Notes: generated from the sequence alone by a model not told the origin. Shown: positions 4,860 to 64,000, numbered from the stretch's first letter. The stretch is 64,000 nucleotides of DNA from Psammoneis japonica (GCA_008632985.1 QPGO01000026.1:558001-622000); one strand, 5' to 3'. Program-made: numbers and translations.

Positions 4860-6410
4860 GGGCTGCGTTGTTGGCTCAGCAGTGGAGCCAGTTCACCATC
4901 ACTTCATTCACATCATTGGAGAGTGCAACGTCAATTGAGGATGTCTCGATGAAGTCACCGTCTTCTCTTTCCCTCTTCTGCACCACTTACAGACCTCCCA
5001 GTTGGGAGTGATGGATTGATGCACCGCTTGAGGTTGACCATGTCCTGGCCATTGAAACGGCAATTGCACCTGATTTTCTTGCCCGTTTCCAGCTCAAAGT
5101 GGAGATCGACCTTGCTTTGGTCTTTCTCGCCGACGGAGCCACTCAGGATCTTGGGTGCAAAGACTCCACCAAACGACATGGTGGCCATGCAGGTCATGTC
5201 AAAGCTTTCCAAGATTGTAAAGGGCTGTGCAAAGAAGGTCCTCACGATCGTCTTGACTCCAATCAACACCTTGACCTGCTGCACTGCGTTCTTGGCCTCG
5301 GTGAAGCGACCCTCAGTGAAGGGTGGGAAGGGAAAGCCAAATGTGCGCACAAAAGTGTTGCTCAATGAACCGAGGTCAGAGAAAGAATTGCCAACAGTGA
5401 CAACACGGTCTGCTTCCTGGTTGCCAATGGCATCTGCCACATGGCCTGGTGTGCTGCTGCCGGTGCCCAAGAGGAACTGTTTTTTCAGCATTGCTGGCAC
5501 TCCCAGTTCTCTTGTGTGCTTTTTTTCAAACACGGCCAGCAGTGTGTCAGAGTGTGCAAATTCCACTCCATCCATGTGTGTCTGCCCAAGCCATTCACAA
5601 CATTTTTGGGAAGAAAACAGCCAAGCTTCTGGCACATGGCAACAAAAAGTTGAGCATTGTTTTGTTTGTGTGTTGGCGCAATTGGCGTTGCTGTCATCAC
5701 ACCCCAACTTGTGTGAAAAAAAGCAAATCAAAGTGTTCTCTGTTGCAGCGTGTGTCCTTGCACTCACTGTTTCATTTTTCTCAACATCTTGTTGAATTTG
5801 CTGTGACTCTCAATGGGTGCATGTAAAAGTGATGCCAGTGTGATCCATTCAATGGCATTTGTTTTCTCAATCTGTTGTTTTGCTTTGATCTTTTGTCCAT
5901 TCTCCGGCAAAAAATTGAGGTGCTTTGTGATGCAAAGAGGTGGATGGAATTGGCACAGGTGTCAAGGTTGGTGAATGCAGAGTGGTGAGCACAAGCAATG
6001 AGTGGGATGCCACACAACACTGTGTCATGCATCATGTGCAGGGCAGCTTTAGCAGGTGCAGTGCCAATGTCATGCTGGGCAGCTCAATGGGAAGTGGTGT
6101 TCTTTGTTGCACTCTGCAATCTGCCAATTTTGGAAAAGTCCCAAAATGAGGGAGCAGATGAGGACACTCATGTCTCTGAACAACTTGAGTGTCTGCTGAG
6201 GATGTCACACCTGCAGCTGTGGCTCCTTGGCAGTTCCACCCTCTGCATGATTGCATCCTGGGGGCAGGCTGTGATTGAGCACCTCCAGTGCAGGGGTGCC
6301 TGACTGTCTTCTTTGACGGGGCAGTTGGAGTGCTGATGACCCCCCAAGTCTCATCACTTGTTTGTTTGCACGTGTTTGTTTGTTCTGCTGTGATGATTGA
6401 TGCTGTTGAG

Positions 6411-6442
<32 letters not shown>

Positions 6443-7760
6443 AACTGTGGCTGCTGCGATGATTCTGTTGGCAGAGTCACCTTCAGAAAGCTGGGGCATG
6501 CTGTTGGGCTGCCAGCGGCAGCACCATTGGGGGTGGGCGGCTCCACTGGTGTGGTGTCACTGGCGTTTGCACTGCTGTTGGTGGTGCAAATGGTCATGTG
6601 GTGTTTTTGGGGGTGGTGCCATGGCGCCACTGGTGGTGGACTGTCAGGGGGCAAGGTTGCTGGCAGTGGCGCCATCGGCGGTGGGCGGTTCCAGTGGTGA
6701 TGCACCTTGCACTGCTGCCCCCGTTGTGGGTGCTGTTTTTTTTTGCTGCTGCTGCAAACATTGTGGTCACCATTGGCTGTGCCACAAACATCATTCATTC
6801 AAGGTTGTCAACATCATCACTGTCACTGCTGGCTTTGCACCCACATCTGCTTTCTTCTTCACAGTTTGAAGCTTCTCCCAGATGGAGCAAATGGCTCCCT
6901 GCAGTGGGCATCCCTGCCGCAGCCGCCGTTGATGCCACTTTCCTGCATCTGCAGGCTGTCCGCAGCGACGCTGATCCCGCAGAAGCGCGCATTGGGAAAC
7001 GCGACTCTCAGTGCGAGACCCACGAAGGGCTGCGGGAGCTCCGTGCGACTGAGACCGACACGACTGGCCATCGCGCACGTGACTCACCTTGCATGAAGGG
7101 ACTGCGTAGGATGCACGCAGCACCGAGCATGATTGGTTCCGTGCAGGGACTGAAGACGCGGTGTGTCTTGCTGTCGCGCGTGCACATGCTCCAGGTAAAA
7201 CAATCTCACAATTTTCGCAACACACGAGCCATCAACCTCTTTGTGACTGAGTGCTCACACCCCATTTTTGCACAGGGCATCCCACTCTGTTGTCTGCCTT
7301 TGCATTTCCTTGGATCACCCATCAATTGTCTTTTGTGCCACCTGCAAAGCTTTGAATGGCGTTTTGTTTCTTTGGCTTGACAAGTTTGTCATGCTGTGGC
7401 ACCATCTCATTGGTGTGATCTTTCACCAAATGGAAAATGCACTTGAGCACCACAGACTTCAAAACATCACATGCGTGTTCCAACCATGTGGGTTTTTGCC
7501 ACTCTTGTCATTTGGGTGGTCAGCTCCATCCAGATTTGCACACTCTTCCTGATTGTGCACCAACATGTGCAAACGCTTGGGATTGCAGATGTTGTTCAGC
7601 ACCACATTCACAACCTTCCCTTTGAGCTGGCAATTGATGGCAGCACACCAAAGGGGTCATGCCCAGATGTCAAATGCCATGCAACCCTGTTCTCAGTTGT
7701 CATTCTGAGCAAAATGTGCAGGGACATTTCTCAAAGATGCTTGCTGCTTGAGACTGCCTG
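4860..7760. mobile_element. Degenerate TpA-depleted repeat/TE-derived domain A (family not identifiable)
   Basis: TA is nearly absent and TG/CA very abundant, with overlapping Cys/His/Gln-rich ORFs in all frames and an abrupt compositional boundary near 4860. Confidence 0.6.
6411..6440. repeat. (CTG)n microsatellite; encodes polyQ in the minus-strand relic ORF 6205-6798
   Basis: ctgctgctgctgctgctgctgctgctgct read directly. Confidence 0.9.
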
Positions 7761-8160
7761 CAGACGCGTTCCAGCCCTAGGTGGGAGCTCGTAGTACTGA
7801 CGTGTGACAACAATAATTTTTATCATCCGTCGTATGTTTCGTACGTAGATTTCTACGTGTGATATTTAAAAAAAATTGTCCAGACTCGCTGTTTTGCGAA
7901 GCCCCAGACGTTTTATATAACAAATTTATAGAAACAATAATGCGCCAGTTACATTCTTCAATGTCTGAAGAATGTAACTGGCTAAGTAAAAAATGATGTA
8001 CTTCCATCATGTGCGAGTTTGTGCGTTCGCAAAATTGCCTCATTTTCTGTTGGCGATCATTGACATTTTAATTACCGTATAATTTTACTACGGAGCTCGC
8101 ACGTAGAAGTCTACGGGCCCAATGTCACACGGATTCCCACCTACGTCTGGCACGCGTCTG
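7761..8160. mobile_element. 400-bp MITE-like element with terminal inverted repeats starting CAG (Tc1/mariner-like)
   Basis: 7759-7786 and 8135-8162 are inverted repeats matching 25/28. CGTGTGACA (7801) and TGTCACACG (8123) extend the symmetry. The interior is AT-rich with no credible ORF. Confidence 0.65.
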
Positions 8161-8162
8161 CA

Positions 8163-10700
8163 CTGGTTGGGATCTCTGAGTGTGCATCAACAGCTTGTTT
8201 GCATTCATGGTGGCTGCTTGAACCTCAGTCCACATGTCCCTGTCATCTGCGGAGTCATCCGAATTCATTTGCTGTCTTTTCTTGTGGGCAACGATGATGG
8301 TGATGACAACCGGGCAATGTTGAGAGACACGATGCAGTCTGTCAATGTCCGATGGTGGTTTGAGACTCTCCACCTTGTTGAGTTTGTCTCTCTGCATCTC
8401 CTTGACATCCTGGAGTCCCTCTGCAGAGGTGTGCGTGCTCTTTTAGAAGTTGCCAGCATTGTTTGCAATGAAGTCATCCTTGATCACTCAATGAGCTTGT
8501 TGCTGTCCTGGCACCCATGTGTCTTGACAACTTCCTTGTGGTGCATGAGCAACGTTGCAAGCATTGCTGGATGAACAGCAACAAAACCAGACCAGCACAA
8601 TGAGACTTCAAAAGGGAAGCACTCAATGCTTCAATGGAGCCTTCTTCCTGGGATCAGGTCTGGCAGCAAAGGCAAAATGGGCAGTCTGGAAGAGCTTCAA
8701 CATGAGAAGGAATGGGGCATGAATTGACCACCAAAAATCACACTGAACTGGGCTCAAATTTGCACTTCTGGGAGCAGCAACAATGGAGGATTGTTTGCAG
8801 CATGAAGCAGAGAACTCAAGCAGACAATGGGAAGAAAGGAAGTCATTGACACTGGAGAGGCATGGACCAAGAGCAGTTGGCAGTTCAGCAAGTTGATGTC
8901 GTCATCCAAAATGACCTTTGAGACACATGGAAAATGTGCCAAAACTTGTGCAAACTTGTTGGCACATGGAAGAATGGCCAATGTGCACTGAGTTGGTCTC
9001 ATCTTCAAACTTCAACAGCAACGATGAAAGATTGTTCACCACACAATGCAGGAAACTGAAATGGACAGCAGGGAGAAGGGGAGTGATTGACAGTTGAGAT
9101 GTGTGGAGAGAGAGCAAAATTGGCAGTTTGGCCAGTCTTTGTCTGTCTAAAATGGCTTGCAGAACACATGGAATTTGCACTGAAACTTGTGTGGAAACTT
9201 TGCATGTGAGAATGAAAATGCCAAGAAGAGTGCTGAGCAATTGAACCAAAAGGGCTCAACGCCAATTGTTTTCCACTGCACAAGATTGCCAATGGTCACA
9301 GAATGGAGGCATGTTGACAAAAGAACAGGTCTGAACAGGCAGGCATGAGATCCACCATTGCACCATCAGAGAAAGGTGACATCTGCACCAGAGCTTGCAT
9401 GGAAAAACACGCAGAGGGTGCGGCCATGAAACTGGGGCAGAATGTGGCCATTGCTGCAAACAGTTTCATTGTCCAGCAGCCAAAAGCAGCCAAGTCCCCC
9501 TTGAAATCCCAGTTGCCTTGAGTGACAGAGGCCACTGTGTTAAAAAAAATGATGGAAAATCATGTCATTGGCAGAGCACACCCAGAAACCAATGTGACTT
9601 TTGTGTGCCCCTTCATCGGTCCACTGACCTTGTCCAGCACACTTTCAAGAATGCATGGAACCTTTGTGGCAGCACCACTGCTGGCCAAATCTTTGAACTC
9701 AGGGAGCACAAAGTTGGCCATGCAATCATCATCTGCTGGGGTGGTTTCCAGCTTTCTGCCAACTGTGACAAAGTGAGCTGCAAGAGCATGGTGCAGGCAA
9801 GCCAAGAAATTGTTTGCATCGATGTGCCACAACGTCATGATTCCATTCTTGGATGTCTTTTTTTTTGCCAGTCACTTTCAAGTTGTTCTTGCTGTGGGTT
9901 CCATTTTGTCACCTCCCACACCCACGTGCCTGCCTCAGCTGTTTGTCCAACGGCATGACAAAGCATGGTGGCAATGGCATGATCGCAGCAGCGGCCATTC
10001 TTCATGAGGATGTGATTCACAGCTTCCAAAAGGTCTTGATGCAGGCCCATGGCAGAATCCTCTGGACAGTCCCCACACTTGATTGCAGCTGTTCTGGCCC
10101 ACATTTTCAATGATTTGTTGAGAGCTTGTCATGTTTGCCTTTTTTGTGCAGTGCTCCTGCAGAGGGACCTTGCATTGTCTGAGAACCGTGCAAATGCCAA
10201 AGTGGTGCTGAGCCTGCCATCTGGGCTTCCAGCGGGTGGGTGCCTTTCTGCTTGTCATCCTTTTCCATCTTGTGCTCCATGAGAAAAGTGCAAAAATTGC
10301 TGCATCATTTTGCTGCAGCTCGGTGCCATTGTCACAGCTCCTCGCAAGTGCTTTTGCTGCAACTCGTGGAGGAGCATGCATCCCAACTTTCTTGCAAACA
10401 CATTCTTCAGTGCAATCAGCCTTGAGCTTCATCTCACTGTGCACTTCCCGCATGATGGCTCAGTCTCCCCGCGCTTCCATCAGGTCCTCCTCGCTGATGT
10501 CATCTTCCCACAGCAGCAGCTCTGCTTTGATGCTTTCTTTCAGCTTGGCAGCCTCTCAAGCGCTCCCTCTCCTTTCAGCATGGATTCTCAACAAATGGGG
10601 CTGCAGTCGAACAATGGCAGAGACCGCATTGTTGAGGCTGAATACAGTGGATTCGTGGGATGGAGAACAGCAGGTTGAAGCTGATGGCTGATGGGGTGAC
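8163..10700 (-). mobile_element. Degenerate TpA-depleted domain B, with a relic minus-strand ORF that may encode a tyrosine-recombinase-like (Crypton-like) protein
   Basis: TA-depleted. Protein-like minus-strand fragments at 9480-10110 include ...LHHALAAHF...FVLPEF...KGHTKVTLVSG...GNWDFKGDLAAFGCW. The family assignment is weak. Confidence 0.45.
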
Positions 10701-16889: not shown

Positions 16890-19490
16890 GATTCACGTCA
16901 CAGAAGTTGAAGTTCACTGCTTTTGTGTGTGTGTTGTAGCCATGATTGGGCATGTGCAACTGTGACCAAGACGGAAAGCATTTTGCAAACAACGCGGCTG
17001 GTGTGCTCTTGTCCCCCCATTTGGTCCAGAGTTGCTTCTGCTCCTGACAAAGACAACTCTTTGATGATGCCAAGCACAGCAGATGTGAGAGCCATTTGCT
17101 CTTGCTTTTGAAGCACACAGTGGTTTGTCTCTGTGTCCTGAGCTTCATCAGGACATCTTGTTTGTGGCTGGCCTTGAGAAAAGTGTTGCGCTGGTGCTCA
17201 GAAGAGCTGGTTGAAAGACGCTGAGGAGTTCTCTCCTGCTTTTGCTCTCAATTTCTCCACTCTCCAATTCATCGTCATTTGAAATGTCAAAAATGTCATC
17301 ATGAGCAGGGCAGTCAGAGAACACAAGGGCAAGGGCTCCTGCTTGGGGTTTTGCTGCAATTTGCTCTTGCACATGATGGGACCTCCTCATGGCCACATGA
17401 TCAAGTTCTTGGGGGCATGTTCCTTTGGGGCCAGTGTGTTGTCAGGAGCCAGCATCCACAGTTCTGAGCAAGAACTCCAGTGCCAGACTGTTGGCCACTC
17501 CATCCTCTGAGCCCAGCAATCCCATCTGCAGCTCCAAGTCTGAGAGCTGCAGTGCACTGCATCTTTGATGATTTCATCCTCGGAGCCAAGCACGCCAAGC
17601 CATGAGGAGCAACTCCATCAGCCACACCAAGCAATGTCCCTTCCTTGGCACCTTCAATGGAGCCCACTGCCATGCCATCTAAAGTGCCAAGTGTGGACCA
17701 CAGCAACCACCCATCAAAGCCTCTGTCATGTGAGCCAAGTGATGGCCCATCTCACACACCTCTTCATGCTTTTGCCATTTGTTGATTTGGTTGGCTCGTG
17801 TGGCCTCCCCCATGGTGAAAAAAATTTTCCCTGAAAAAAAAAAATGACAACTTTCAGTTGACAAAAAGGTGCAGAAAGTTGATTGGTGACAAAGGCTGCA
17901 ATGGTGGCTGGAGGCTGCAAAGCTGCGCATCATTGAGCACGCTCATTTGCTGAGAACAGCACATTGCGGGGGGGGGGGGGGGGGTGATGGGCAACAGACC
18001 AGCAAATTTTTTCCTGTCCAATGAGTGGACAGTGTTGCAGCCAATGCAGACACTGCAAATTTTTGTTGTTTTGTTCAAGAATGGAGAACCTCAATTTGAG
18101 CCACAGTTTCAACAACTTTGAGGCAACTCCCAGAAGCAACTTGTTGCTGTTTTGTGCCAGCACAGCACCAGTGCTGTTGAATGATGTGAATTGTCACACA
18201 AGTGTTCTCACGCAAAATGCATTTTTTGGGACTTGCTCATGGGAAAATTTGTGGCTGTTTCAGAATGCCTCCACATGCCATGGAATGTCTCCAATGTGAG
18301 CTGCAGCTGCTCACATTTAAAGCCAAAGTTTTTGTTGGATGCCAACATGGTGGGCTGACAGGACAGCAGCCAGAGGCCACTTGTGTTCAACAAAAAGTTG
18401 AAAAATGGGTTGCTTGGGGGCTGGAAGTTGTTCATTGGGTGCTCCCAAAGCCATTGTGTCACAGCTGATGTTGGCACTGTTCATTTTCCCTCTGCAGAGT
18501 CAGAGCTGTGATGGATGGTAAATCAATTTTTAAGAAACAAGAACAATCTTCCAGAAATGCACTTGGGAAATTTGCACATCAGGCAGTGATGAACACGAGA
18601 ACCCAAGCGCTCAAGTGATCACAGATGCAGCCCCCCAAAGTGTTGAGTGTTGGACATCCATGTCACAGGAAATGCTCACAACAGGGTGGCTTGGGAGCTG
18701 TGCACCGCAGCCAGAAGATGGGAGAATGAAGTCCAAGTCAAGTGTTGTTGCACACAGAGAGGTGCTGGGCTTGCAGAGCATGAGTGGTGCAATGATGCCT
18801 TCAACCATCACCTGAACAAAAGGATGCCACAATTGCATTGAGTGCATGTTGGGCAATGTTGGTCAGAAGATGGGGTTGTTTTTGGTGGCCCTTGCTCTCT
18901 CCATTGCACAGGTGTCCCATGATGATTCAACCAATTCTTTGCCTGCACAATTTTCTGAAAGACTTTGGCACTGATGATGGATGACGATGAATTGCGCACC
19001 CCTTCAGTTGACACTGGTGGACCAAGTCAGCACCAACAGGGGGTGAGCCACTCCTTTCTGCAGATTGGCCTGCATGGGATGCAACCACAACTTGCATCCT
19101 CAGGACCAGTGCTGGCTTGAAGAAAGGTCTGCCCCATGGGTTCATCATGGGCAGTGTCCGGCTTGATCTCACCCACCTTGCAGCAGTGGCAGAAATGTGG
19201 CTTTGGCAGCACTGAGCTGCAACCAGAGAACCAATCTGCCTTGGGCGTTTTGCTCTGCAGACAATGTTGTTGCCATTCATTGTCCCAAAATTCCAAGCAC
19301 AACTGGAGTGATGCCCAGCTGAAGCAAAACCCGCTGGGGTGTGGTGTTGTTGGGGTGTCTGAATGCCATTTTGGATCTGCTGGGGACATGGAAATAAACG
19401 TGGCACCATTGCAAAGCTGTCGTTCTGCAGATGATGCCATTGCCATTGATTGCCGTCAGTTCCAAGTTCTTCTAAAGCAATGCAGGATGA
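16890..19490. mobile_element. Degenerate TpA- and CpG-depleted domain C (TE relic, family unknown)
   Basis: Very few TA or CG over about 2.6 kb; a poly-G run near 17968-17984; many short Cys/His-rich ORFs. Confidence 0.6.
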
Positions 19491-25620: not shown

Positions 25621-25733
25621 GCCCAGCGCGAGCGCGCGGGAGTGCACCATCATGGTCTGTCATTCACCCCCCTCATCCCTCAACACTCAAAGGTCAAAGG
25701 AAGACGCACACAACACACAACATTGACGATGCG

Positions 25734-48231: not shown

Positions 48232-48236
48232 CATTG

Positions 48237-51500: not shown

Positions 51501-54132
51501 GTTGGGCGCTGGTGCAACCAGAGTCGATGGCCGGGGTGTCGGCACAAACGGTGTCAGTGGCGACAGGCTCATTGCGGCGGTGCACATTAAGGGCGGGGTT
51601 GGGTGATTTGTGGGCCTTCCTAAGGTGTGTACCGGCGGGCATGCGGGCGTGCTGCGTGGTGCAGTCAAAAGCATGACGGACCGCATCGGCAGGCAGGAAG
51701 CCAAAGTGAGGCCGAAGAGACTCGAAGGGGGGGTCCTTGGGCTGTACAGTGCGCTCCGGGGGCGGAACGTCGTCGCCCTTGGGGTCAATCGCGTGTGGAT
51801 GACACTCATGGAACACGTCGTCGTTCGGAATGAGGTGATCATCGAGGGCGGACGCGTGATCGGCAGACAAGGAAGCGGACATGATGGTCTCGTTGACAAC
51901 GACACGATGACGGCAGTTGCCGCATTCATCAAACAGGTTGGCAGTGGGATCGTCCTGCAGGTCAGAGATCGCGTCGTGCCACTGGTCGTCTTCAGTGACA
52001 GAGTGATCGAGGATGGAAGGATCCCATGTGTCATCACCGGTGAGGATGACATGGGGCAGGGTGTCCCATTCGGCGTCAGTGCAAGGTCGCATGGCAACAC
52101 AAGGCAGGCCGGCCTTGATGTCAATGGGGATGACATGGCCATCAGGAGTGGCAATACGTTGCAAGCCGTTGGGCACCTTGACAGAGCGATCGTTGACATC
52201 CTGTTTGTGCCATTTGAGCTGGCCGCAGGAATGGATGGTCTTGCCCTTGCCCGTGCGTGCGCATTGATGGAGGATGGCGATGACGGGACCACGCTGGGTC
52301 TCAATGACGGCACCAGCGGTGACAACAGGGATGTCCACCAATTGATGGTCGTCAATGCCCTGGACGTCGACTTGGCGAGAGGTGCGTGCAATGACGTGAA
52401 CGTCGTCACCAGCAATGCCGCCGTTGGCCCCACGATCGACTGGAGCACCAGTGCATGTGGAGCGATGAGCAGAGGCAGAGCAAATGACCTTGTGGTTGTC
52501 AACGCGACGGTGAGTGCGGCCGTCAAGTTCTGTGTCATCAGCAGAAGCTGGCGGGGTAGAGGGAGCGGCGGATGGCCCCGGTCGACTGGCATTGGGGGCT
52601 TGGTTAGGAGACAACAGACGTTGCAGATCACCGGGTGGCAGTGGCTTGCGCTTGGTGAGGTGCGCCAGGATGGGATCATCCGAAGTGGCACCCACATTTG
52701 GAGCGGAGTCACCAGAGTCAGCAGGAGTTGTGTTGGACAAGTTGACATCACCGTCTCTCCCAAGGCGTTGGTCGTGAAGGTTGGCCGTAACAGACTCATG
52801 GCAGTTGCTGGCTCGCGGGTTGCGGGGAGGCGGACGAGAATGCTCAAGGATGATCGCCTTGGAGGAATGGGGCAACGAATCCCAGATCCGTTGGTGGTCG
52901 GGAGGGAGACGTTTCCATTGGTCACCGGTGAGGCTGGGACCGTGGGTGTGGGCAGCATTGGCCTGAAGGACGTCAATGTCGCTGTCAATGTCGTAGAACA
53001 CATCGTCGGACAGTTCCTCGGAGCAGACGTTGTGTGCGCACATGGCGCGTCGGGGAGCTCGAGGTGTCGTCTTGGGTTGAAACGCACTGTCGCATTGAGC
53101 TGCCGCGGAGAGGAGCAAGCCACAGCATTGATCGCATGTGAGGCTCTTGCCACTCTGCGTGCGATGCTGATCAGCTTGGTTCTTGACAGCACGGAGTTCC
53201 TCGACAGGGTGTGCGGCATTCTCGAGCATGACGCGCTTCTGTCCTTCAGAGAAGTGGTCACTGGCCGGGATGAGTGCCTCGCACTTGCGCAACTGATCTT
53301 GCCAATGAAGGATGAACCCGTGGGTCGGACCTTTCCAAGTGCCATCACCAAGACGTGCGGTGGTGAGGCACGTCAGCAAGGTGGAGGACTCGACAGATGC
53401 GCGGGTGGAGGCGAGCGCGTGCTCAGACAAGGCGCGGTGGACAGTCTGGGCGTCAGAAGACCCCACATTTTCGCGGATGAGAGCCTTGCCCTTGTCGGTG
53501 AGAAGGATGCGTTCGAAGATGGCGAACATGTGCTTTTGCTGTTCAGCAAAGAGCAGTTTGTCTTCGGGGCTGGTCGGTTTGTACGACGAGTCTAGAATGC
53601 ACTCGACGTCTTGGGCACGGGCTTGTGCCACCAGTGAGGTGTGCCAAGTGTGCCACTGCTTGTCGGATTTGAGAGCCGTGAAAGCGGTGGGATCACGCTT
53701 GATGCCTTGCTTGAAGTCCCGCACCAGGTCGCGTGCCTTGGTCGGGTTGGTGACATGCGGAGGTGCGAGGGGTGAGCTGCCGATGGACACAGAAGACATG
53801 CAGTCGGGGCTGAGGCGGCAGGCAAGGAACTCGTCATGCGTGAACAACGAGGAGTCATTGGCAACGTCAAGACCTTTGTGTGCTTTGACAATGTGCAGAC
53901 CAACTAGAGCTGCTAACATGTTCTTGTGACCACGGGGCAAAGGGATCACATTGGTGCCGTTGTCGCACTCAAGCGAGTCGATTTGGGACAGCATGAACGT
54001 GAACAGTTCTTGATGCGAGTCCGTGCCGTCTTGGGCCAAAGCCAAACGAAGAGGGCTCCCAGCACCTTGGGCAAGCACGGTTCCAACAACGTGCTCGAAA
54101 CCATCGGTTTGTTGCTGACGAGTGAGAACCAT
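48463..54132 (-). pseudogene. Copia gag-pol polyprotein, inactivated by one in-frame TGA and massive Tyr->Cys/His substitution
   Basis: PR VDRGANG; IN D(TVCAD)...D(RAQVE)...QNFAERR; RT KARLVADGH and VYVDD; RNaseH GDNKSV and NPADILSK. TGA at 49285-49287 sits where Arg is expected (WAVSLG*IDI). Confidence 0.95.
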
Positions 54133-55054
54133 GGTAGACAAAAGTGGTGTCAGGACAAGCAATTCTTGTTGGGAAGCGAAGGCAGACTTGAAGCTTGGGT
54201 GAGAATGGACTTGACTTGAAACAGACTTGACTTGAAATCTTGAACTGCCTTAAAATCAGAAGTCGCCGGGCTTTGCTGTCCCGTTCGTTGTTGAGTGCTA
54301 AACTTCCCATCCGGTCCGTAGAGTTGTGCCGGCACGTCCGAACCCGCAGCCAGTGGCGCTTTGGGTTGCTTGCGAGCAGAGCAGCGGGTTGCAAACCCCT
54401 GCAGGTGAGCTGACCAGAGGTGGACAAGACCCCCGAACCATTCTTGTTTTATGTCGGTTGGATTTCCCGATCAGGCTGGCCAGTTGACGCAGGCGTTGGG
54501 CGCTGTGGACGAACGAACAAACGCGGGAAAGCACCCTCGCCCCAACGCAGGCTGTGATCACGGCTGCTTGCTCTCACAGTCATCCTCGTGGACCCAGTGG
54601 AACTGCAGAGCACCAGCAGTCTGGGGCAGATCAGGTGCAATGGACTCGGTGTGCTTGTAGAGTGGCAGCAAAACCGCAGTCCGAAGAGTGGGCACAGGTT
54701 CTTGGCCGTGAAGATGTGTGCATGTGTGCATGTCTTCAGCGACGAAGATCCTTGGACATGTGGGGTTCTAGCCCGTTGACTGATGAACAGGTGTGCCAAG
54801 GGATGAGGATCAAGGACAGACTTGGACATGACCATTGAATGCATGTCTTCAGCGATCAAAGGCAGCACAATCAATCCAGACATCCAGCGGCAAGGAGACT
54901 TGACGGTGACATTAACTTCCTGCCGATGCCCTGGCATTGAATGCGCGTAGACTTGCCGATGTATGTAGAACATGTACGGAGGTCCACGTAGAATTGAAAT
55001 GGCGTCGTTGGTAAATCAACGACGACGATGGCGGTTGCTCAATGGGTTGACAAT

Positions 55055-55071
55055 GAGCAAGACTGTCAATC
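55055..55071 (-). other. Putative primer-binding site complementary to a tRNA anticodon arm (half-tRNA type)
   Basis: GATTGACAGTCTTGC lies directly after the 5' LTR, with no TGG; its complement reads G-CAAGA-CT-GTC-AA-TC. Confidence 0.45.
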
Positions 55072-55347
55072 TGACAGAAATTGAAGGCAAATGGCAAGAA
55101 TTCAAACAACAACTCCTCGCTGCTGTCTAAATGGCAGATGAGTCTCCGCTCAGAGACCGTCACAGGAGCCGAAAGACGTGCAAGTCGGCACAATCGGGCT
55201 ACTGTTGTTATTCTTGTGAGCCTTGTGGCTCGAAAGCAAACTACATCGCGCGCGAACGCGCGGAACTAAAGCACACAAAACTGTGCGCGGTAAACTAAAC
55301 AACGCGCGACATTTCGCGCGCACCTGAATCCTGTTCAAATCCTGTCA
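55072..55347 (-). repeat. 5' LTR (276 bp)
   Basis: Direct repeat of 48237-48515. Confidence 0.95.
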
Positions 55348-55369
55348 CATTGTTTGCCTGACGGATGAT

Positions 55370-55371
<2 letters not shown>

Positions 55372-55404
<33 letters not shown>
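55372..55404. repeat. (AC)n microsatellite
   Basis: Read directly. Confidence 0.95.
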
Positions 55405-55405
<1 letters not shown>

Positions 55406-56560
55406 GGGCAACGTGTCAACAGCTGTGAGCAACTTGTCTCTCTCTTCTCAGAGATGCCACACACCTCTTTTCTTGCTTCTTGCCACATGAAACCTCTCTG
55501 TTGTCAACTCTCTTGAGCAGCAGCTTGCATTGTCACATGTGTTGTTGAAAAGTGCTGCTGTGCTGTTTGTGCAAAACTGCCCAGAATCCAGGTGTTCTTT
55601 CCACCAAGTGGCGAGAATGATCATGAAAAAGAAAGTGGAACAGTCAAGCACCACAGCAGCCACATGAGCAAAAAAAAATTTCAGCTTGCCAAAAGCCAGC
55701 TTCTTCTTGTGACAAACTTGGAGCTGCAGGTTGACTCATTTTAGCACACTCAAGCATCACAAGCAATGCACAGTGTGCTGGCTGGCACCAAGAGAGTGTG
55801 CAAGCAGTTGTCTGGGGGGTGGAGCACTGCACTTGCACGTTGAGCACCCCCATTCTCTCCCCCTCCTTTTTCTCTAACTTGGAGGGTCGCCTGCATGGCT
55901 TGGACATGTGCCTTTCTCATTGAGAAGTGCGCAGCTCATTTGCAACTCCACAGATCATTTTTTGACACTGCTGTGCTCTCCACCCCTTGTTCTGTTCTCA
56001 CACCTCATCCAGAAGATGGGCCAGTGCACTGGCGGTGCTCTCCAGATGATGCACTCTGCACCCAACCTGCAGCAGACCTTGTGTTGATGCACCGTGGATG
56101 GAAAAGGCTCTTCTGGTGCAGATGCTGGCAGGGCGTCTTGCATCACCACCACCAAGCAAAGGCACCAGTGAAGAGCAAACAGAGGGGCCACCAAAGCAGC
56201 GCGCTGCTCTTTTTGGGGGTGGGCCAGGTGGGGGTGGCGGGAGGGCTCAAGGGCTGGTGGCATTGTGGGTCTTCCAGAGAGGCAATGGGTGCACTTGGGA
56301 TTGCTCCCCTGAAGGATGGTTGAGCGAGAAGTGCTGTCCTCGGATCGAAGCATTTGCCCCCCCCCCCCAGCAANACACCACTGGCTCAAGAGGCACACAT
56401 CACAGATGACAACAGCTGCTTCTAAAGAGTGGCTGGAAATGTCATTAAAATTAAAGACCATCTTCCGCCTTCTCCTGTTCCCAGTAGATCCGTGAATTCG
56501 TTGCATTTTATGTGCATGATGCACAATGTGCTGTGTGATGGTGAGGCTGGGGTCAACGCC
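55405..56560. mobile_element. TpA-depleted relic DNA flanking the Copia insertion (right)
   Basis: TA and CG rare, TG/CA-rich; one N at 56374. Confidence 0.5.
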
Positions 56561-56932
56561 CCCGCACGCACGTCGCGTGCGACGGGCGATCTCACGAAAC
56601 ATTTTGGCGGGGAAGATGAAAAAAGAGAACTCCAAACGCGAATAGACCTAGTGAATGCATGTTCAAGAAACGTAGAATTTTTACAGTATTTTGATTTTTG
56701 CATTCGTGAGGTGCGCAAACGAAACCGATCTTCCCATCAATTCCTCCGATTCTTTCACAAAATCGAGTATGACAACGCTCAGAACAAGGCCAAGTTAGGG
56801 TCAAACCTTCCTCTTGCACCTAACACTCTTGAATCTGGAAGAGCACCTTTTACTTTATACTAGTTGACTTGCCTCAGATCAACTAAACTGTACACAGGCG
56901 AGCAGTCTAGACGTGACGAAGGAACAGTGAAA

Positions 56933-57784
56933 ATGCAGGGAAGAGAACCAACAAAAGGGCACATCACGAGGTCTATGCGAGCCTTGATTACTTTGATACC
57001 TGCTGGATTGTTTGTGCTCGTTACTATGCAACCCATTAAACAGCTAAAGAGCGGTACTTTTGATGCCCTGAAAACGTCTACCATCGAAGAAAAGATTAAC
57101 TCCTGCGGGTCAAGTTCTTCGGTCTTTGATTCAATCGTTGAAGAAGCCTACAACAGCGCCACTCAAAGTCCACAAGGGACTATACGCAAGAAATTTGATG
57201 TGGATTATTGGGAGAATGAATCCAATTTGACCACCACCGGGGGGCTCGGGAGAATGGATCGAATAATGCTTGGAGAATTGTACGGAGAAGCTGACTCTGT
57301 CTTTGAGTATGGACTGGGAGAATCCACATACATCGCCAACCACGTTGGTGTTCCTCGATACGCTGGTATTGACTCTGATCCGTTATGGGTAGCTGATGTG
57401 CGTGACAAAGTTGCAAGCCATTTTCGTTTCTACTACGGTGACGTTGGTGCAACGGGAAATTGGGGCTATCCTAGCAACAGCAACCTGCCAAAGAACAAGC
57501 TCAACTATCAACTGGCACCTCTTGTTTTGGAACAAAAGCCATTTGATGTATACATGGTGGATGGACGTTGGCGCGTCGCCTCTGCCTTGGCTAGCTTTTT
57601 GCATGCAAGCTCGAGAGGAGCAGATCCGCTCAAAACCAAGGTGCTGATTCATGATTGCGAACGCAAGTATTATCACAATGCGGACCACTTGCTCAACCTG
57701 ACGAGGCACTCAGGCGGCAAACTCTGTCTTTACCAGCGTTTCCCGCATGCAACCGATGAAGCATTGCAGAAACTTGTGGAATGA
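56933..57784 (+). CDS. Class I SAM-dependent methyltransferase-like protein with an N-terminal membrane anchor
   Basis: VFEYGLGEST, GIDSDPLW, FDVYMVDGRWRVA and VLIHD; hydrophobic LITLIPAGLFVLVTM. Confidence 0.7.
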   Translation: MQGREPTKGHITRSMRALITLIPAGLFVLVTMQPIKQLKSGTFDALKTSTIEEKINSCGSSSSVFDSIVEEAYNSATQSPQGTIRKKFDVDYWENESNLTTTGGLGRMDRIMLGELYGEADSVFEYGLGESTYIANHVGVPRYAGIDSDPLWVADVRDKVASHFRFYYGDVGATGNWGYPSNSNLPKNKLNYQLAPLVLEQKPFDVYMVDGRWRVASALASFLHASSRGADPLKTKVLIHDCERKYYHNADHLLNLTRHSGGKLCLYQRFPHATDEALQKLVE

Positions 57785-58040: not shown

Positions 58041-58150
58041 GCACATTTCGTCGAGAAGCAGCACATTCATATTTTTTCGGAATTTTTTTTTTGCATGGCA
58101 CCTCCTGTGAACACCAGCTTGACCTTGTCAACACTTTGGAGGCTCTGGAC
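58041..58150 (-). pseudogene. Short relic copy of the amidohydrolase 3' end and UTR
   Basis: cgtcgagaagcagcacat...cctcctgtgaacaccagcttgaccttgtcaacactttggaggctct aligns to about 62617-62710. Confidence 0.75.
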
Positions 58151-60260
58151 AATCTCACAAAATGTTTGAGTGCTGCCATCGCTTTTCTTGATGGAGAAGG
58201 CTCTGCTGGCACAGTTGCTGCCATCTCCCAAACCCAAGCTGGATGGTGGTGCCTTGCAGGCCCCTTTGTGGCCTGTTCTGGTTTTCTGTGTGGTGATTTG
58301 GCTGTGCTGGCTGGCAGCAGAAATTGGTTGTTGACTCCCAACTCTCTCTGGAAGTTTGTGCCAGGGTCTTGCCATGCTCTGTGGTGACTCACTGGTGGGC
58401 CTGTGCATGGAGTGCCACCTGAACAAAGCCAAGCTGTTCATCTGAGCACCTGACAACTTGACTGCAGAACAGCAGCAACACATGCTTGCAAGCACTTGCT
58501 TGGGCATCAGAGTGGCTGGGAGCAACAACTGAGCACATTTGGAAGGGACCAACATGGCTGACAAACAATGGTGATGACGGCATTGTGCCAACTGGAAACA
58601 AAGTGAGGCAGAGACAGATCTCAAAAAATCTGCTTGATTGTCCAGGTCTGGCCATGAGACCAGCCAAGACCAGGTGTGCCAGCAGACTCCTTGCCCCAAC
58701 AGACATTGTGTTTGCTGCACTGCTGGGTGCATGGGAGCAGGAGTCAGATCTTTGAGCACATTGTGAAATGGTGGTGGCACCATTTTGTTGTCACATTGCA
58801 GGGCATGAATGTTCCCACCAGAGCTTGCAGATGTGCTGCTCTGATGGGAGTGAACACAAAATGATGGTGATGTTCCAACTGTGACAGGGTTGTTCACCTG
58901 TCAACATGCAATCCTTTCTCCTGTCCCAGCATCCAACGATGGGTGATGTGATGACAGAGTTTTGTCTCTCTGGCCATCATCTTGTTGCTTGTTGGCAGTG
59001 GCAAAATCATGTTCTCCTGAGACCTGGGGCATGTTGCTGTGGGTGTGTCCTCATTGAATGGCAGCAGCAAAATTCGCCATGGCCGTGCCACCACACATTG
59101 CCGGTGGCTGGCTTTGTGCGCATCTGCCAGCTGCTGGCACTCCCTGAGCCTGGCATTTCATGCAAGTGGCTGGTGTGGAGTTCTGATGAAGCTGTCTTTT
59201 TCAGCTCCACAGCACATGATGAGTGTGGTGCTCTCTTTGCCAAAATGACACATTGCTCGAATGGCTGCTCAGTTTTCAGCTCTTGTCAATTTTGGGAGGA
59301 AAAATGACTCCCAAAGGCAAGAGGCAGCATCAGAGGCCAAATTTGTCACATCTCAACCATGCACTTAACTTGCATGGCAGCTCTAAGAAATGTGCTGGGG
59401 GGGCTCTTTTTTCCTGCAGACTTTTGTGCAAGGCCTGAGGGCACACACACTTGAGTGTGCAGCAGGGCTTTTGGATCCCCACAACCGCAAGGCATCTGCA
59501 CATTGTCATGGAATGAATCTGAGTGTCTCATGCAGATGAAGCATCTCCCATTGTTCTTTGAAGAAACTGTGGTGACACACAGATTTGTGGCAGCTGCAAG
59601 ACTTGTGCTGTTCTGAGCATTCAACAATGACAGATTTTTGGGTTGTTGTGTTCTAAAGGTGACCACTGCAAGAACATTTTCTCTGTTCACAAAGGCAGTG
59701 CAGAGTGTTGCATGTTCACAAAATGAATGTTGCCATTGCAACAGTGCTTTGTTTGAATTGGAGCTGAGCAGAACTCTCACAAGTGAGGGGAAAAACACTT
59801 CAGCTGCTGCTGGGCTGAGAAAAAGATGCTGCAGCTTGTGCACGGCACATGCAGGTGATGTGCAGCTTTGACTTCTGCAAATTTGTTTGTTTTGAAGTTG
59901 TTTTCATTAAAGTCACATGGGTAAAATCTGGGGAGGGGGCACTCTTTGTTTCTTTTGCTGTGATCATTTTTTAAAATGATTGTGTCGGTGTCTCCCGGAG
60001 CTGGTGCGTTCTTGTCCCTTTTGGCTGATGTCATGTGCAATCTGCAGAATGCCAAATTTGTCAACAACACTGCTGTTGCATTTTAGAGTTTTTAACCCAA
60101 TGGCTTTTTGGGTTGGCAAGTGCATCATGATGGATTAGATGATTGCACGCTGCACAGTCCGATGACCTTTGATGCCAATGCAGTGCCGTGTAGATGGGCT
60201 GTTGCAACTCCATTGGCACAGCAACTCATCATGTTGACAACTCACAGGCATGTGTGAAAC
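58150..60260. mobile_element. Degenerate TpA- and CpG-depleted domain G (TE relic)
   Basis: Almost no TA over about 2 kb. Confidence 0.55.
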
Positions 60261-60339
60261 AAGTGCAGAGTGTTTGCCTGCCCCACAGCCACTGGCGCTG
60301 CAGTTGTTGACTTGCCAATTGACTCAAGAGAGAGCATGC

Positions 60340-60850
60340 GCGTGCGAGAAGAACCAACAAACAATGTGCACATCACAAAGTCTGTGAGAACCCTGATTGC
60401 ACACTGCATTTTCAGTTTTTGTCACTGTGCAACTGTTTGCACCATCAAAGATTGGTGCTTTTATGACCATGGAAACTTCACACAACAACAAAAGGAAAAA
60501 TGTGGAAATGACATTTTCCATGTTTGATGCAATCTTTGAACAAGCCCACAATGGAGCCATTCAAAGTCCGCCAGGAGGTGTCCGAAGACATTTTGATGTG
60601 GATCATTGGAACAATGAATCCAATTTGTCCATGATCAAATGATGCTTGGAGAATTGCACAGAGAAGCCAACTCTGTCTTTCAGCATGAACTGGGAGAATT
60701 TTCGCACATTGCCAACCATGTTGGTGCTCCTCGATGTGATGGCATTGATTCTGACCCATCTTGGATTGCTCAGGTGTGTGGCAAAGTTGTGGATCACTTT
60801 CATTTTCATTTTGGTGATGTTGGTGAAATGAGAGATTGGGGCTGTCCTGG
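60340..60850 (+). pseudogene. Hypermutated, truncated paralog of the 56933-57784 methyltransferase-like gene
   Basis: MLGELHREANSVFQHELGEFSHIANHVGAPRCDGIDSDPSW aligns with MLGELYGEADSVFEYGLGESTYIANHVGVPRYAGIDSDPLW. Confidence 0.9.
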
Positions 60851-61171
60851 GTCCTGGCCATGAACCCCAAGCTGTCAAAAAATTGTTTGTTGCGAGCACG
60901 CAGCCACCAGCACTCAGTTGGGACCACCATGGGTTTGAGCCAACAGCCAAAATGTGAGACAACTTCAAAAGCGGCTGGCATGCAGCCAGAAGTCCAAAGA
61001 GATCATGACAATGGCAAACCACATGGCTTGCACTTCGGCACGAACCATGCCAAACCAGTGGGCCAGCGGGCCAAACCGATTTTCGGAGGGAGACCGACGT
61101 TAAAGAAGAGCCAGGACGAGTTCCTCTCGAAATGCATCCAGAAATCCTCAACATTTTGTCAGCGTGCATCA

Positions 61172-61514
61172 CAGTTTTACAGAATGTTTTTACGCAGGAC
61201 GCCTCCTTTGAACACCAGCTTGACCTTGTCAACACTTTGGAGGCTCTTGACACCTCGAGAGGCGTGTTGACAAGTCAAGACAAATCACATCCGCGTCATA
61301 CTGTATAACCGCTTTTCAACTGCCCCGTGAGAGGAGCTGCGAGGAGCCCTGTTTTCCAAGAGACAAGGCTCCATGGATGGTCGTTGCCTCTCTATTGCTT
61401 TTTCTGGCGTCATGCCCAGATCCACCTGGTATTCCAACTTTTTGGCGGACGTGCCGTAACCTTTCGCATAAAAAATATCGCATCCAGTAGCAATCTTGAC
61501 TCCTCCTGCCGCAA
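61172..61514 (-). pseudogene. Partial duplicate of the amidohydrolase 3' region, with micro-insertions
   Basis: High-identity match to about 62634-62949, with several short inserted duplications. Confidence 0.9.
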
Positions 61515-63977: not shown

Positions 63978-64000
63978 GGAGCCTCGAGTACTCCCAAGTC

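What the first reader, a model, noticed from the sequence alone, without database searches (positions are those of the whole stretch)
4860..61260. Candidate new genome-defence system: domain-restricted TpA->TpG/CpA hypermutation of repeats ('reverse RIP')
Seen: about seven sharply bounded domains are nearly free of TpA and loaded with TG/CA, while interleaved genes have normal TA. They lie at ~4860-7760, 8163-10700, 16890-19490, 22480-25620, 31135-31930, 47640-56560 and 58090-61260. The LTR pair, the Copia Tyr codons and a gene paralog pair show that TA was converted to TG or CA, i.e. A->G in TpA on either strand. Established: fungal RIP mutates C->T and creates TpA, and 5mC decay removes CpG only, so neither removes TpA. 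Inference: a mutator acts on silenced repeat domains. Candidates are a DNA adenine deaminase (TadA-derived editors favour TA), deamination of a modified adenine, or Pol eta-type error-prone repair (WA->WG signature) recruited to methylated DNA. I know of no described pathway like this in diatoms but cannot search the literature.
Basis: partly seen in the sequence, partly recalled or inferred. Interest (0 to 1): 0.95.

Follow-up and report, generated by a model that had tools for sequence, protein, structure and literature searches.

The report
TpA-erasing hypermutation of diatom repeats
In this diatom genome, silenced transposon and duplicate-gene stretches have had almost every TA dinucleotide turned into TG or CA. 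The same rare mutation signature was first reported in 2026 in a distantly related alga, and its enzyme is still unknown.

Summary
Eight sharply bounded stretches (16.2 kb pooled, excluding the Copia element) hold 33 TA where about 576 are expected. CpG is also depleted (236 against about 926). The TA+CG deficit (1233) equals the TG+CA excess (1206).

It is mutation, not native composition:
- A nested Copia element has Tyr at only 6 of 38 conserved Tyr columns (Cys 22, His 6, Phe 4).
- A pseudogene copy has lost all 27 aligned TAs of its intact neighbour, 18 of them to TG or CA. Sixty outgroup proteins polarise the change.
- The two LTRs differ at 15 sites, 14 of them CG/TA/TG/CA steps, so the changes came after integration.

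K-mer contigs of a DNA run reproduce the domains exactly, which argues against a base-calling artefact.

The host is a diatom. The same TpA-to-TpG/CpA hypermutation was shown in mutation-accumulation lines of Bigelowiella natans (bioRxiv 10.64898/2026.01.13.699255). My five searches found no diatom report.

Verdict: a new member of a very recently described kind. The enzyme is unknown; adenine deamination is the leading guess. Pol eta, ADAR-type and RIP readings fail tests here.

The parts
4990..7778 (.). Domain D1: TA- and CpG-depleted relic. It forms one domain with D2, split by the MITE-like insert.
   Evidence: 5 TA and 71 CG in 2789 bp, with 362 TG and 278 CA. No Pfam hit in its ORFs. Other genomic copies carry CA where the window keeps TA at 7107 (14 contigs).
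7780..8141 (.). Unmutated MITE-like insert with terminal inverted repeats (TAGGTGGGA... / ...TCCCACCTA), flanked by TA on each side.
   Evidence: 31 TA between 7778 and 8142, against none for 582 bp before and 302 bp after. Inverted ends are seen. The k-mer depth bin 7836-8502 is about 73,740 against about 33-55 for single-copy sequence.
8143..10643 (.). Domain D2.
   Evidence: 3 TA and 35 CG in 2501 bp. CA-versus-TG double differences to other genomic copies at 8940/8941 and 9760/9761.
16938..19395 (.). Domain D3.
   Evidence: 4 TA and 21 CG in 2458 bp. Contigs of run X1 match 16592-17526 and 18095-19102 with 0 differences.
22715..25748 (.). Domain D4. It ends next to the WD40 gene.
   Evidence: 5 TA and 33 CG in 3034 bp. 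An X1 contig matches 23106-24361 with 0 differences.
31159..31835 (.). Domain D5, a short stretch between two divergent genes.
   Evidence: 2 TA and 16 CG in 677 bp.
47572..48236 (.). Domain D6a: left part of the older repeat into which the Copia element inserted.
   Evidence: TA O/E 0.03-0.07 and CpG 0.17-0.63 in the 500-bp windows starting at 47751 and 48001. It ends at the target-site duplication CATTG.
48237..55347 (-). Ty1/Copia LTR retrotransposon. LTRs lie at 48237-48515 and 55072-55347. The 5-bp target-site duplication is CATTG. The ORF spans 49285-54249 (-).
   Evidence: RVT_2 hit at 5.3e-26. LTRs and target-site duplication. TA O/E 0.15, CpG 0.86. Tyr is kept at 6 of 38 conserved Tyr columns; Cys 22, His 6, Phe 4.
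55348..56423 (.). Domain D6b: right part of the older repeat. It holds the single N at 56374.
   Evidence: 2 TA and 15 CG in 1077 bp (measured on 55347-56423). N position.
58071..61101 (.). Domain D7. It holds a hypermutated pseudogene copy (about 60290-60987, +) of the neighbouring gene.
   Evidence: 11 TA and 35 CG in 3031 bp. Pseudogene comparison.
56864..57784 (+). Intact paralog, a conserved diatom gene of unknown function. It serves as the unmutated reference for D7.
   Evidence: 306-aa ORF with Tyr 4.9%. 278 homologs at E<=1e-5, including proteins named from Amphora, Epithemia, Fistulifera and Fragilaria. It matches 63 of 69 conserved columns.

Best explanation
These domains are transposon relics, a nested Copia retrotransposon and a duplicated gene fragment in a diatom nuclear genome. 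Two mutational processes have rewritten them in place as chromosomal DNA.

1. A very fast process is strictly confined to the palindromic step 5'-TpA-3'. It turns A:T into G:C on either strand, so TA becomes TG or CA.
2. A slower process is ordinary CpG-to-TpG/CpA decay, of the kind expected from 5-methylcytosine.

The TpA process is the same kind of process measured de novo in integrated viral DNA of the chlorarachniophyte Bigelowiella natans.

I think it most likely works as follows. An enzyme is recruited to silent, methylated chromatin and deaminates adenine to hypoxanthine at TpA steps, one site at a time, on whichever strand. Replication then fixes G:C.

Its effect is irreversible inactivation. 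It removes Tyr codons and the TAA and TAG stops. By inference it also removes TA-based signals such as TATA and AATAAA.

Shown here: the signature, its direction, its timing after integration, its TpA restriction, its use of both strands, its sharp borders and its flanking-base bias. Inferred: targeting by chromatin state, the defence role and the chemistry. I give about 0.4 to adenine deamination specifically.
For: Direction of change:
- At 38 alignment columns where at least 70% of 45 Copia relatives have Tyr, this copy has Tyr 6, Cys 22, His 6 and Phe 4. Every other residue type is kept at 78-98%.
- Tyr is 0.5% here, against a median of 3.9% (range 3.0-5.0) in 120 relatives. His (5.1% against 3.5%) and Cys (3.0% against 1.0%) take up the loss.
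- Control copies from metagenomes (L001, L003, L036) keep Tyr at 43 of 46, 42 of 46 and 20 of 23 columns.
- Paralog pair: the intact gene has 27 aligned TAs. The D7 copy has 0 TA there, with 9 TG, 9 CA and 9 other. The reverse change, TG or CA to TA, occurs once.
- With 60 outgroup homologs, the intact gene matches 63 of 69 conserved columns and the D7 copy 34. All 7 conserved Tyr columns are Tyr in the gene, and His 4, Cys 2, Trp 1 in D7.

Timing after integration:
- The LTRs have a perfect 5-bp target-site duplication and differ at 15 sites. These are 7 CG against TG/CA, 4 TA against TG/CA, 3 TG against CA, and 1 other.

Not native composition:
- 80 metagenomic relatives of the element have TA O/E 0.35-1.02, against 0.15 here.

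Specificity:
- Only TA, CG, TG and CA depart from expectation. AA is 1.24 (1.16 in the rest) and AG is 1.00 (0.90 in the rest).
- The TA+CG deficit is 1233 and the TG+CA excess is 1206. For the Copia element the figures are 174 and 185.

Strands:
- TG is about equal to CA in every domain (TG fraction 0.44-0.57).
- TG and CA are not arranged in strand-coordinated runs (runs z between -1.2 and +1.75).

Rate:
- In the Copia element TA O/E is 0.15 while CpG is still 0.86.

Flanking bias:
- 28 of the 40 TAs left in or at the edges of the saturated domains sit in TAAA/TTTA, against 237 of 1587 elsewhere (Fisher p 2e-14).
- A 3' T or C is rare among survivors (3% and 12%, against 28% and 30% elsewhere).

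Real bases:
- Contigs of DNA run X1 (depth about 31-37 for these records) match 4981-5573, 16592-17526, 18095-19102 and 23106-24361 with 0 differences, and 19075-23027 with 1.

Precedent:
- In B. natans, 230 of 231 de novo mutations in two viral inserts were A>G or T>C. The text says these GC-biased mutations all fall on TpA. The rate was about 1000 times background. The genome also holds 124 TpA-poor, CpA+TpG-rich clusters.
Against: - No enzyme is identified. The whole genome is not held, so no deaminase, TET/JBP or methyltransferase search was possible.
- The only ADAT2 shown to deaminate DNA prefers 5'-GAA-3' for adenine, not TpA (passages of PMC10354150).
- Direct polarisation exists only for the Copia element and D7. 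For D1-D5 it rests on composition, mass balance and a few differences to other genomic copies.
- Run X1 may be the sample the assembly came from and its platform is not on record, so it is not fully independent.
- Tyr went to Cys 22 times and to His 6 times in the Copia element (binomial p 0.004). Neither a strictly strand-neutral process nor the flanking bases explain this.
- Part of the low TA of the Copia element could predate insertion. A related metagenomic element (L049) has low TA but keeps 21 of 26 conserved Tyr columns.
- CpG methylation is inferred from CpG loss only.
Confidence: 0.8

Rival explanations
1. Same phenomenon, different chemistry. The thymine of TpA is modified, for example oxidised by a TET/JBP-type dioxygenase to 5-hydroxymethyl- or 5-formyl-uracil. 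It then mispairs with G or is misrepaired, giving T>C at TpA.
For: TA>CA on one strand cannot be told from TA>TG on the other, so every count here fits equally well. From recall, not from any call: base J and dinoflagellate 5hmU are reported at T followed by A, and 5-formyluracil mispairs with G. The known DNA-active ADAT2 prefers GAA, not TA.
Against: No evidence here for such an enzyme or base in diatoms. The chemistry is not testable with these tools. The B. natans authors favour adenine deamination.
Confidence: 0.15
2. Native composition. These TE families or foreign DNAs were always TA-poor, through selection against TA or an unusual donor genome, and nothing was mutated in place.
For: A related metagenomic Copia (L049) has TA O/E 0.08-0.5 in 400-bp windows across its element while keeping 21 of 26 conserved Tyr columns. 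Some lineages may therefore be TA-poor while still functional. The codon-position comparison with relatives was confounded by GC content.
Against: Conserved Tyr is replaced by Cys or His at 28 of 38 columns. The LTRs, identical at insertion, now differ at TA/TG/CA steps. The D7 copy lost all 27 TAs that its intact paralog and 60 outgroups support. The 80 relatives have TA O/E 0.35-1.02.
Confidence: 0.05
3. Sequencing or assembly artefact. Modified bases in heterochromatin (5mC, 6mA, 5hmU) are miscalled, so TA and CG are read as TG or CA.
For: Both palindromic steps vanish together in the same domains, as strand-specific miscalls would produce. Run X1 may be the assembly's own data.
Against: X1 contigs up to 3953 bp at depth about 31-37 match the domains with 0-1 differences. 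Noisy long reads would not give that. Protein-level consequences are coherent: Tyr to Cys/His at conserved sites, with the rest of the protein kept. An unmutated MITE sits inside a domain, with base-sharp edges. Other genomic copies carry different choices (CA against TG) at the same site.
Confidence: 0.03
4. Error-prone repair synthesis (Pol eta type, WA>WG) recruited to methylated DNA.
For: A>G at TA is part of the WA>WG motif.
Against: AA is not depleted and AG is barely raised in the domains (AA 1.24 against 1.16, AG 1.00 against 0.90). Loss is confined to TA to near completion (O/E 0.03).
Confidence: 0.03
5. RNA-level A-to-I hyperediting (ADAR-like) of retroelement transcripts, fixed by reverse transcription.
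For: Tyr>Cys (sense-strand A>G) outnumbers Tyr>His 22 to 6 in the Copia element. ADAR favours a 5' U (stated in the preprint's Discussion).
Against: The LTRs diverged at TA steps after integration. Both strands are hit about equally overall. The D7 gene copy and the old non-coding relics are affected too. AA is untouched.
Confidence: 0.03

Closest known systems
TpA hypermutation of integrated NCLDV and virophage DNA in Bigelowiella natans (Mettrop et al., bioRxiv 10.64898/2026.01.13.699255)
   Same: Near-exclusive A:T>G:C change, restricted to TpA and giving TpG or CpA depending on strand. It is confined to bounded regions of foreign or selfish DNA. It leaves a long-term footprint of TpA-poor, CpA+TpG-rich clusters enriched in RT and DDE domains.
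   Different: The host is a diatom (Stramenopila), not a chlorarachniophyte (Rhizaria). The loss here is saturated (TA O/E 0.03, against Rho 0.45 for the NCLDV insert). It is shown on an LTR retrotransposon after integration and on a duplicated host-type gene. It coincides with CpG decay. It shows a flanking bias, with TAAA/TTTA refractory. The words 'CpG', 'trinucleotide', 'flanking' and 'diatom' do not occur in the preprint's main text. No de novo rate is measured here. The preprint's supplements were not available to me.
Repeat-induced point mutation (RIP) of fungi
   Same: Irreversible mutational inactivation of selfish or duplicated DNA within sharp borders, with a dinucleotide-specific signature.
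   Different: The direction is opposite. RIP makes TpA from CpA/TpG; here TpA is destroyed. Only one member of the duplicated pair is mutated.
5-methylcytosine decay of CpG in methylated transposons
   Same: It accounts for the CpG>TpG/CpA half of the signature. Metagenomic Copia relatives L003 and L036 show that half alone (CpG O/E about 0.2, TA about 0.5).
   Different: It cannot remove TpA. In the Copia element here, TA loss runs far ahead of CpG loss.
APOBEC3 and ADAR editing of retroelements in animals
   Same: Deaminase-type hypermutation used against retroelements, with a neighbour-base preference.
   Different: APOBEC gives C>T/G>A. ADAR acts on RNA and also edits AA. Here the change is on chromosomal DNA after integration, on both strands, and at TpA only.
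ADAT2/TadA-family deaminases with DNA activity (amphioxus BjADAT2, PMC10354150)
   Same: A eukaryotic enzyme able to deaminate adenine in DNA. The B. natans authors propose an ADAT2 homologue as candidate.
   Different: BjADAT2 prefers 5'-GAA-3' for A and 5'-TCG-3' for C, and hairpin or single-stranded substrates (passages only). That is not TpA in what looks like duplex DNA.

Membership tests
B. natans-type TpA hypermutation | Changes are almost only A:T>G:C transitions at TpA, giving TpG or CpA. | tested here: met
   18 of 27 TAs went to TG/CA and 0 stayed TA. 28 of 38 conserved Tyr columns are Cys or His. Only TA, CG, TG and CA depart from expectation. The mass balance is 1233 against 1206.
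B. natans-type TpA hypermutation | Both strands are hit. | tested here: met
   TG fraction is 0.44-0.57 in all domains. The paralog pair gives 9 TG and 9 CA. There are no strand-coordinated runs.
B. natans-type TpA hypermutation | Confined to bounded regions of foreign or selfish DNA; flanking genes are normal. | tested here: met
   Borders are sharp to 50-150 bp. A Copia element lies inside a domain. Genes between the domains have TA O/E 0.56.
B. natans-type TpA hypermutation | A de novo rate about 1000 times background, seen in only some mutation-accumulation lines. | not testable with these tools
   There is only an indirect hint. 14 of 15 LTR differences are at YpR steps and 1 is elsewhere.
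Fungal RIP | C>T at CpA/TpG, raising TpA. | tested here: not met
   TA O/E is 0.03 and TG/CA about 1.8.
Fungal RIP | Both copies of a duplication are mutated. | tested here: not met
   The intact paralog keeps 63 of 69 conserved columns and all 7 Tyr columns. The D7 copy keeps 34 and none.
5mC-driven CpG decay | CpG>TpG/CpA with no effect on TpA. | tested here: not met
   CpG loss is present (O/E 0.24), but TA loss is stronger (0.03). TA loss occurs without CpG loss in the Copia interior.
ADAR-type hyperediting fixed by retrotransposition | Sense-strand A>G acquired before integration; AA is also edited. | tested here: not met
   The LTRs differ at TA steps. A non-retroelement, D7, is affected. 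AA is unchanged. There is a sense-strand bias at Tyr codons (22 against 6).
Pol eta WA>WG mutagenesis | A>G at both TA and AA. | tested here: not met
   AA O/E is 1.24 in the domains and 1.16 elsewhere.
TadA/ADAT2-type DNA adenine deaminase as effector | An HxE-PCxxC deaminase is encoded by the host and acts on TpA in DNA. | not testable with these tools
   No genome is held. No deaminase lies in the window. The amidohydrolase fragment at 63250-63998 is peptidase-like.

The most novel reading that the evidence does not exclude
Diatoms and chlorarachniophytes share an ancient, chromatin-targeted genome-defence pathway. Its effector converts adenine (or thymine) specifically at TpA steps of duplex DNA. 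It erases TA-based signals and Tyr codons of transposons, duplicates and integrated viruses faster than CpG methylation decay does. Some transposon lineages may answer by purging synonymous TA while keeping Tyr, as the metagenomic element L049 hints. The effector would be a natural TpA-specific DNA A:T>G:C editor of a kind not yet characterised.
Probability: 0.35. Interest if true: 0.9.

Novelty: new member of a known kind. Interest (0 to 1): 0.72.

Why it matters
Occurrence. Direct measurement of this process exists for only one organism, in one 2026 preprint, and its enzyme is unknown. Finding the saturated footprint in a diatom suggests the process occurs in two SAR lineages, Stramenopila and Rhizaria. 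That makes a comparative search for the effector gene possible.

Route to the mechanism. Some diatoms can be transformed and edited (general knowledge, not from a call). If a tractable species shows the signature, the mechanism becomes testable.

Genome evolution. The process shows a way to inactivate transposons permanently that is distinct from RIP. It raises local GC content. It also removes the TAA and TAG stops, which leaves long spurious ORFs in several frames. One search shows overlapping ORFs of up to 1654 aa in the Copia region. This matters for gene prediction and perhaps for de novo gene birth.

Biotechnology. An enzyme that makes A:T>G:C changes at TpA in what looks like duplex DNA would interest base-editing work. 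I recall no natural double-stranded-DNA adenine deaminase being in use.

Tried and rejected
- Whole-genome search for deaminase, TET/JBP or methyltransferase genes and for other TE copies: no genome is held.
- RNA evidence: no RNA holder was listed. Run X2 carries spliced joints (GT..AG) and has zero depth in the bins 4501-10503, 17174-19174 and 22510-24500. Those bins hold the laid parts of D1-D4 except the first 236 bp of D3, plus the MITE and about 490 bp of non-domain sequence. Absence of cover is not evidence.
- Rfam and tRNA scans found nothing in the window.
- Pfam on 76 ORFs of at least 90 aa inside the domains gave no hit, except a sub-threshold ChlI fragment in D5.
- Pfam on 43 further ORFs outside the domains found no nucleic-acid deaminase. 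The Amidohydro_1 fragment at the window's end resembles ochratoxinase and prolidase enzymes.
- Purine/pyrimidine-coded self-comparison, meant to reveal families hidden by transitions, found no new cross-domain similarity. Only the known pairs rose (LTRs 96.8%, paralogs 83.9%).
- Codon-position comparison of TA, TG and CA with 29 relatives was confounded by the higher GC of this lineage.
- Flanking bases do not explain the Tyr>Cys over Tyr>His bias.
- The 5' neighbour of surviving CpG shows only a modest shift (GCG 34% against 21%) and gives no clear mechanism.
- Earlier findings of this scan held nothing on this genome or this signature in eukaryotes.
- Literature look-ups for TadA sequence preference gave nothing usable. 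PMC5726555 is not held.
- GC-biased gene conversion was considered and rejected. It is not dinucleotide-specific and would not remove CpG.

Full report
**Observation**

The window has 1679 TA and 2825 CG. Sliding 500-bp windows show stretches where TA O/E falls to 0.00-0.10 and TG+CA O/E rises to 1.7-2.05. The sequence in between has TA O/E of about 0.4-0.9. TA-gap mapping gives TA-free runs of up to 1296 bp, and borders that are sharp to about 50-150 bp.

They are 4990-7778, 8143-10643, 16938-19395, 22715-25748, 31159-31835, 47572-56423 and 58071-61101.

- In the pooled domains without the Copia element (16,231 bp) there are 33 TA. The rest of the window's O/E predicts 579, or 576 in the per-domain sum. 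Log10 P is about -197.
- O/E values are TA 0.03, CG 0.24, TG 1.79 and CA 1.85. The other twelve dinucleotides lie between 0.86 and 1.26.
- The missing TA+CG (1233) equals the surplus TG+CA (1206). For the Copia element the figures are 174 and 185.

**Are the bases real?**

One DNA run (X1, coded, platform not on record) holds 96% of the sampled words of 16001-26000. Its k-mer contigs, at depth about 31-37, match 4981-5573, 16592-17526, 18095-19102 and 23106-24361 with 0 differences, and 19075-23027 with 1. Noisy long reads could not give such contigs. A base-calling artefact from modified bases is therefore unlikely, although X1 may be the assembly's own data.

Other genomic copies of the D1/D2 repeats differ from the window in telling ways. 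They carry CA where the window keeps TA at 7107 (14 contigs). They carry TG where the window has CA at 8940/8941 and 9760/9761. That is as expected if independent copies resolved an ancestral TA or CG differently.

**Host**

A tryptophanyl-tRNA synthetase ORF (38590-39801, minus strand) is 72-76% identical to its best-scoring hits. Those that carry a species name are all diatoms: Grammatophora, Amphora, Seminavis, Phaeodactylum, Nitzschia and Cylindrotheca. The gene at 56864-57784 has 278 homologs at E<=1e-5. Those among the 120 listed that carry a species name are from diatoms (Amphora, Epithemia, Fistulifera, Fragilaria). The window is therefore diatom nuclear DNA, not Bigelowiella.

**Anatomy**

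The sixth domain is composite.

- A Ty1/Copia element (RVT_2 at 5e-26) spans 48237-55347.
- Its LTRs are 279 and 276 bp long and end in TG...CA. It has a perfect 5-bp target-site duplication, CATTG.
- It sits inside an older repeat (47572-48236 and 55348-56423) that is even poorer in CpG.

D1 and D2 are one domain, interrupted at 7780-8141 by a MITE-like insert with inverted ends. The insert carries 31 TA in 365 bp and has a k-mer depth of about 74,000 against about 33-55 for single-copy sequence. It is not mutated.

D7 contains a pseudogene copy (about 60290-60987) of the intact gene at 56864-57784.

The remaining domains have no Pfam-recognisable coding capacity. None of 76 ORFs gave a hit, apart from one sub-threshold fragment. 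They also share no similarity with each other, even after purine/pyrimidine recoding.

**Direction of change**

1. *Copia protein.* Tyr is 0.5% of the 1654-aa ORF. The median in 120 relatives is 3.9%, and none is below 3.0%. His and Cys are raised by about the same total. At the 38 columns where at least 70% of 45 full-length relatives have Tyr, this copy has Tyr 6, Cys 22 (TGY), His 6 (CAY) and Phe 4. All other residue types are kept at 78-98%. Three control elements from metagenomes keep Tyr at 43 of 46, 42 of 46 and 20 of 23 columns.

2. *Paralog pair.* Of 27 TAs in the intact gene, none is TA in the D7 copy; 9 are TG and 9 are CA. Of 28 CGs, 3 remain, 10 are TG and 6 are CA. TG or CA in the gene became TA once. 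With 60 outgroup proteins, the intact gene matches 63 of 69 conserved columns and D7 matches 34. All 7 conserved Tyr columns are Tyr in the gene, and His 4, Cys 2, Trp 1 in D7.

3. *LTR pair.* LTRs are identical at integration. These now differ at 15 sites: 7 CG against TG/CA, 4 TA against TG/CA, 3 TG against CA (two single transitions from one ancestral TA or CG) and 1 other. The changes therefore happened on chromosomal DNA after insertion.

4. *Family background.* 80 metagenomic relatives of this Copia element have TA O/E 0.35-1.02, against 0.15 here.

**Properties of the process**

- *TpA-specific.* AA (1.24 against 1.16), AG, GA and the other dinucleotides are unchanged.
- *Both strands, about equally.* The TG fraction is 0.44-0.57. 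There are no strand-coordinated tracts, with runs z between -1.2 and +1.75.
- *Faster than CpG decay.* The Copia element has TA O/E 0.15 and CpG 0.86. In the LTRs only 1 of 15 differences lies outside YpR steps. By rough inference the rate is orders of magnitude above background.
- *Flanking-base bias.* 28 of the 40 surviving TAs sit in TAAA/TTTA, against 237 of 1587 elsewhere (p 2e-14). Survivors rarely have a 3' T or C.
- *Not symmetric on duplicates.* One paralog is spared.
- *Spares a high-copy MITE inside a domain.* Either the MITE is younger than the mutation, or targeting is specific to the element.

One feature is unexplained. In the Copia element Tyr>Cys outnumbers Tyr>His 22 to 6 (p 0.004). 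Neighbouring bases do not account for this.

**What is known**

Five full-text searches found no report of this in diatoms. They did find a 2026 preprint on Bigelowiella natans (10.64898/2026.01.13.699255). I read its abstract, all of the Results and the Discussion, and ran a term search. Its supplements were not available to me.

- In 15 mutation-accumulation lines, 231 of 302 nuclear mutations fell in an integrated NCLDV and a virophage region.
- 230 of those 231 were A>G or T>C. The text says all of these fall on TpA.
- The rate was about 6e-7 per site per generation, about 1000 times background, and appeared in only some lines.
- The genome holds 124 TpA-poor, CpA+TpG-rich clusters and a TpA-poor set of coding sequences enriched in RT and DDE domains.
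- The authors propose an adenine deaminase (an ADAT2 homologue) and a defence role.
- The words 'diatom', 'CpG', 'trinucleotide' and 'flanking' do not occur in the main text.

The present window therefore shows the same kind of process in a second lineage. It shows it in saturated form, on an LTR retrotransposon and on a gene duplicate. It adds the CpG co-decay and the flanking bias.

**Mechanism**

*Shown:* a TpA-restricted A:T>G:C change on integrated DNA, on either strand, site by site, in bounded domains that also lose CpG.

*Inferred:* the domains are methylated, silent chromatin. An enzyme recruited there deaminates adenine at TpA, giving hypoxanthine that pairs with C. I give this chemistry about 0.4.

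The thymine route (oxidised T mispairing with G) fits the data equally well and cannot be separated here.

The only DNA-active ADAT2 studied prefers GAA for adenine (passages of PMC10354150). The candidate named for B. natans is thus not supported by sequence context.

The Pol eta (WA), ADAR-type, RIP, gBGC and artefact readings each fail a test above.

No effector candidate lies in the window, and the genome is not held.

**Verdict**

The process is no longer unprecedented, so it is a new member of a very recently described and mechanistically open kind. Interest stays high because diatoms are ecologically dominant, and because a second lineage makes a comparative hunt for the enzyme possible.

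Noticed in passing
window 7780-8141: MITE-like element with inverted ends (TAGGTGGGA.../...TCCCACCTA) and TA on each flank. Its k-mer depth is about 74,000 in run X1, which suggests well over a thousand copies. It is unmutated although it lies inside a TA-free domain.
   Followed up: partly
L049 1-3974 (marine metagenome contig): A related Copia (about 68% DNA identity to the window's element) has TA O/E 0.08-0.5 but keeps 21 of 26 conserved Tyr columns. It is followed by a 565-bp TA-free, CpG-poor stretch (3108-3673) with a sharp border. This may be the same process in another organism, or a TE lineage that purged synonymous TA.
   Followed up: partly
L003 and L036 (metagenome contigs): These Copia relatives have CpG O/E of about 0.2 and TG/CA of about 1.5, but ordinary TA (about 0.5) and intact Tyr columns. 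They show CpG decay without TpA loss, so the two processes are separable.
   Followed up: partly
window 49285-54249 (-): At conserved Tyr codons the Copia copy shows Cys 22 against His 6 (p 0.004), a sense-strand A>G bias. Flanking bases do not explain it, and the D7 pseudogene does not show it (His 4, Cys 2).
   Followed up: partly
window 48237-48515 versus 55072-55347: The left LTR (the 3' LTR, given the minus-strand ORF) is the more mutated. All 4 TA-against-TG/CA differences keep TA in the right LTR, and 6 of 7 CG differences keep CG there.
   Followed up: no
window 48463-53929: With TAA and TAG gone, the Copia region carries long overlapping stop-to-stop ORFs in several frames on both strands (up to 705 aa besides the true 1654-aa frame). 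This is a trap for gene callers.
   Followed up: no
window 60988-61526 versus 62437-62964; 58042-58151: Diverged direct repeats (about 84-88% identical) flank the FkbM-type methyltransferase gene (61521-62594). A short related piece lies at the left edge of D7. This looks like local segmental duplication.
   Followed up: no
window 63250-63998 (-): Fragment of an amidohydrolase gene running off the window. It resembles ochratoxinase, prolidase and Arg-carboxypeptidase enzymes, not a nucleobase deaminase.
   Followed up: yes
window 15586-16041 and 20298-20771: Run X2 contigs skip 107, 77 and 146 bases with CT..AC ends, and 472 bases with GT..AG ends. These look like spliced introns of a minus-strand gene and a plus-strand gene.
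   Followed up: no
window 56374: The single N of the window lies inside domain D6b.
   Followed up: no
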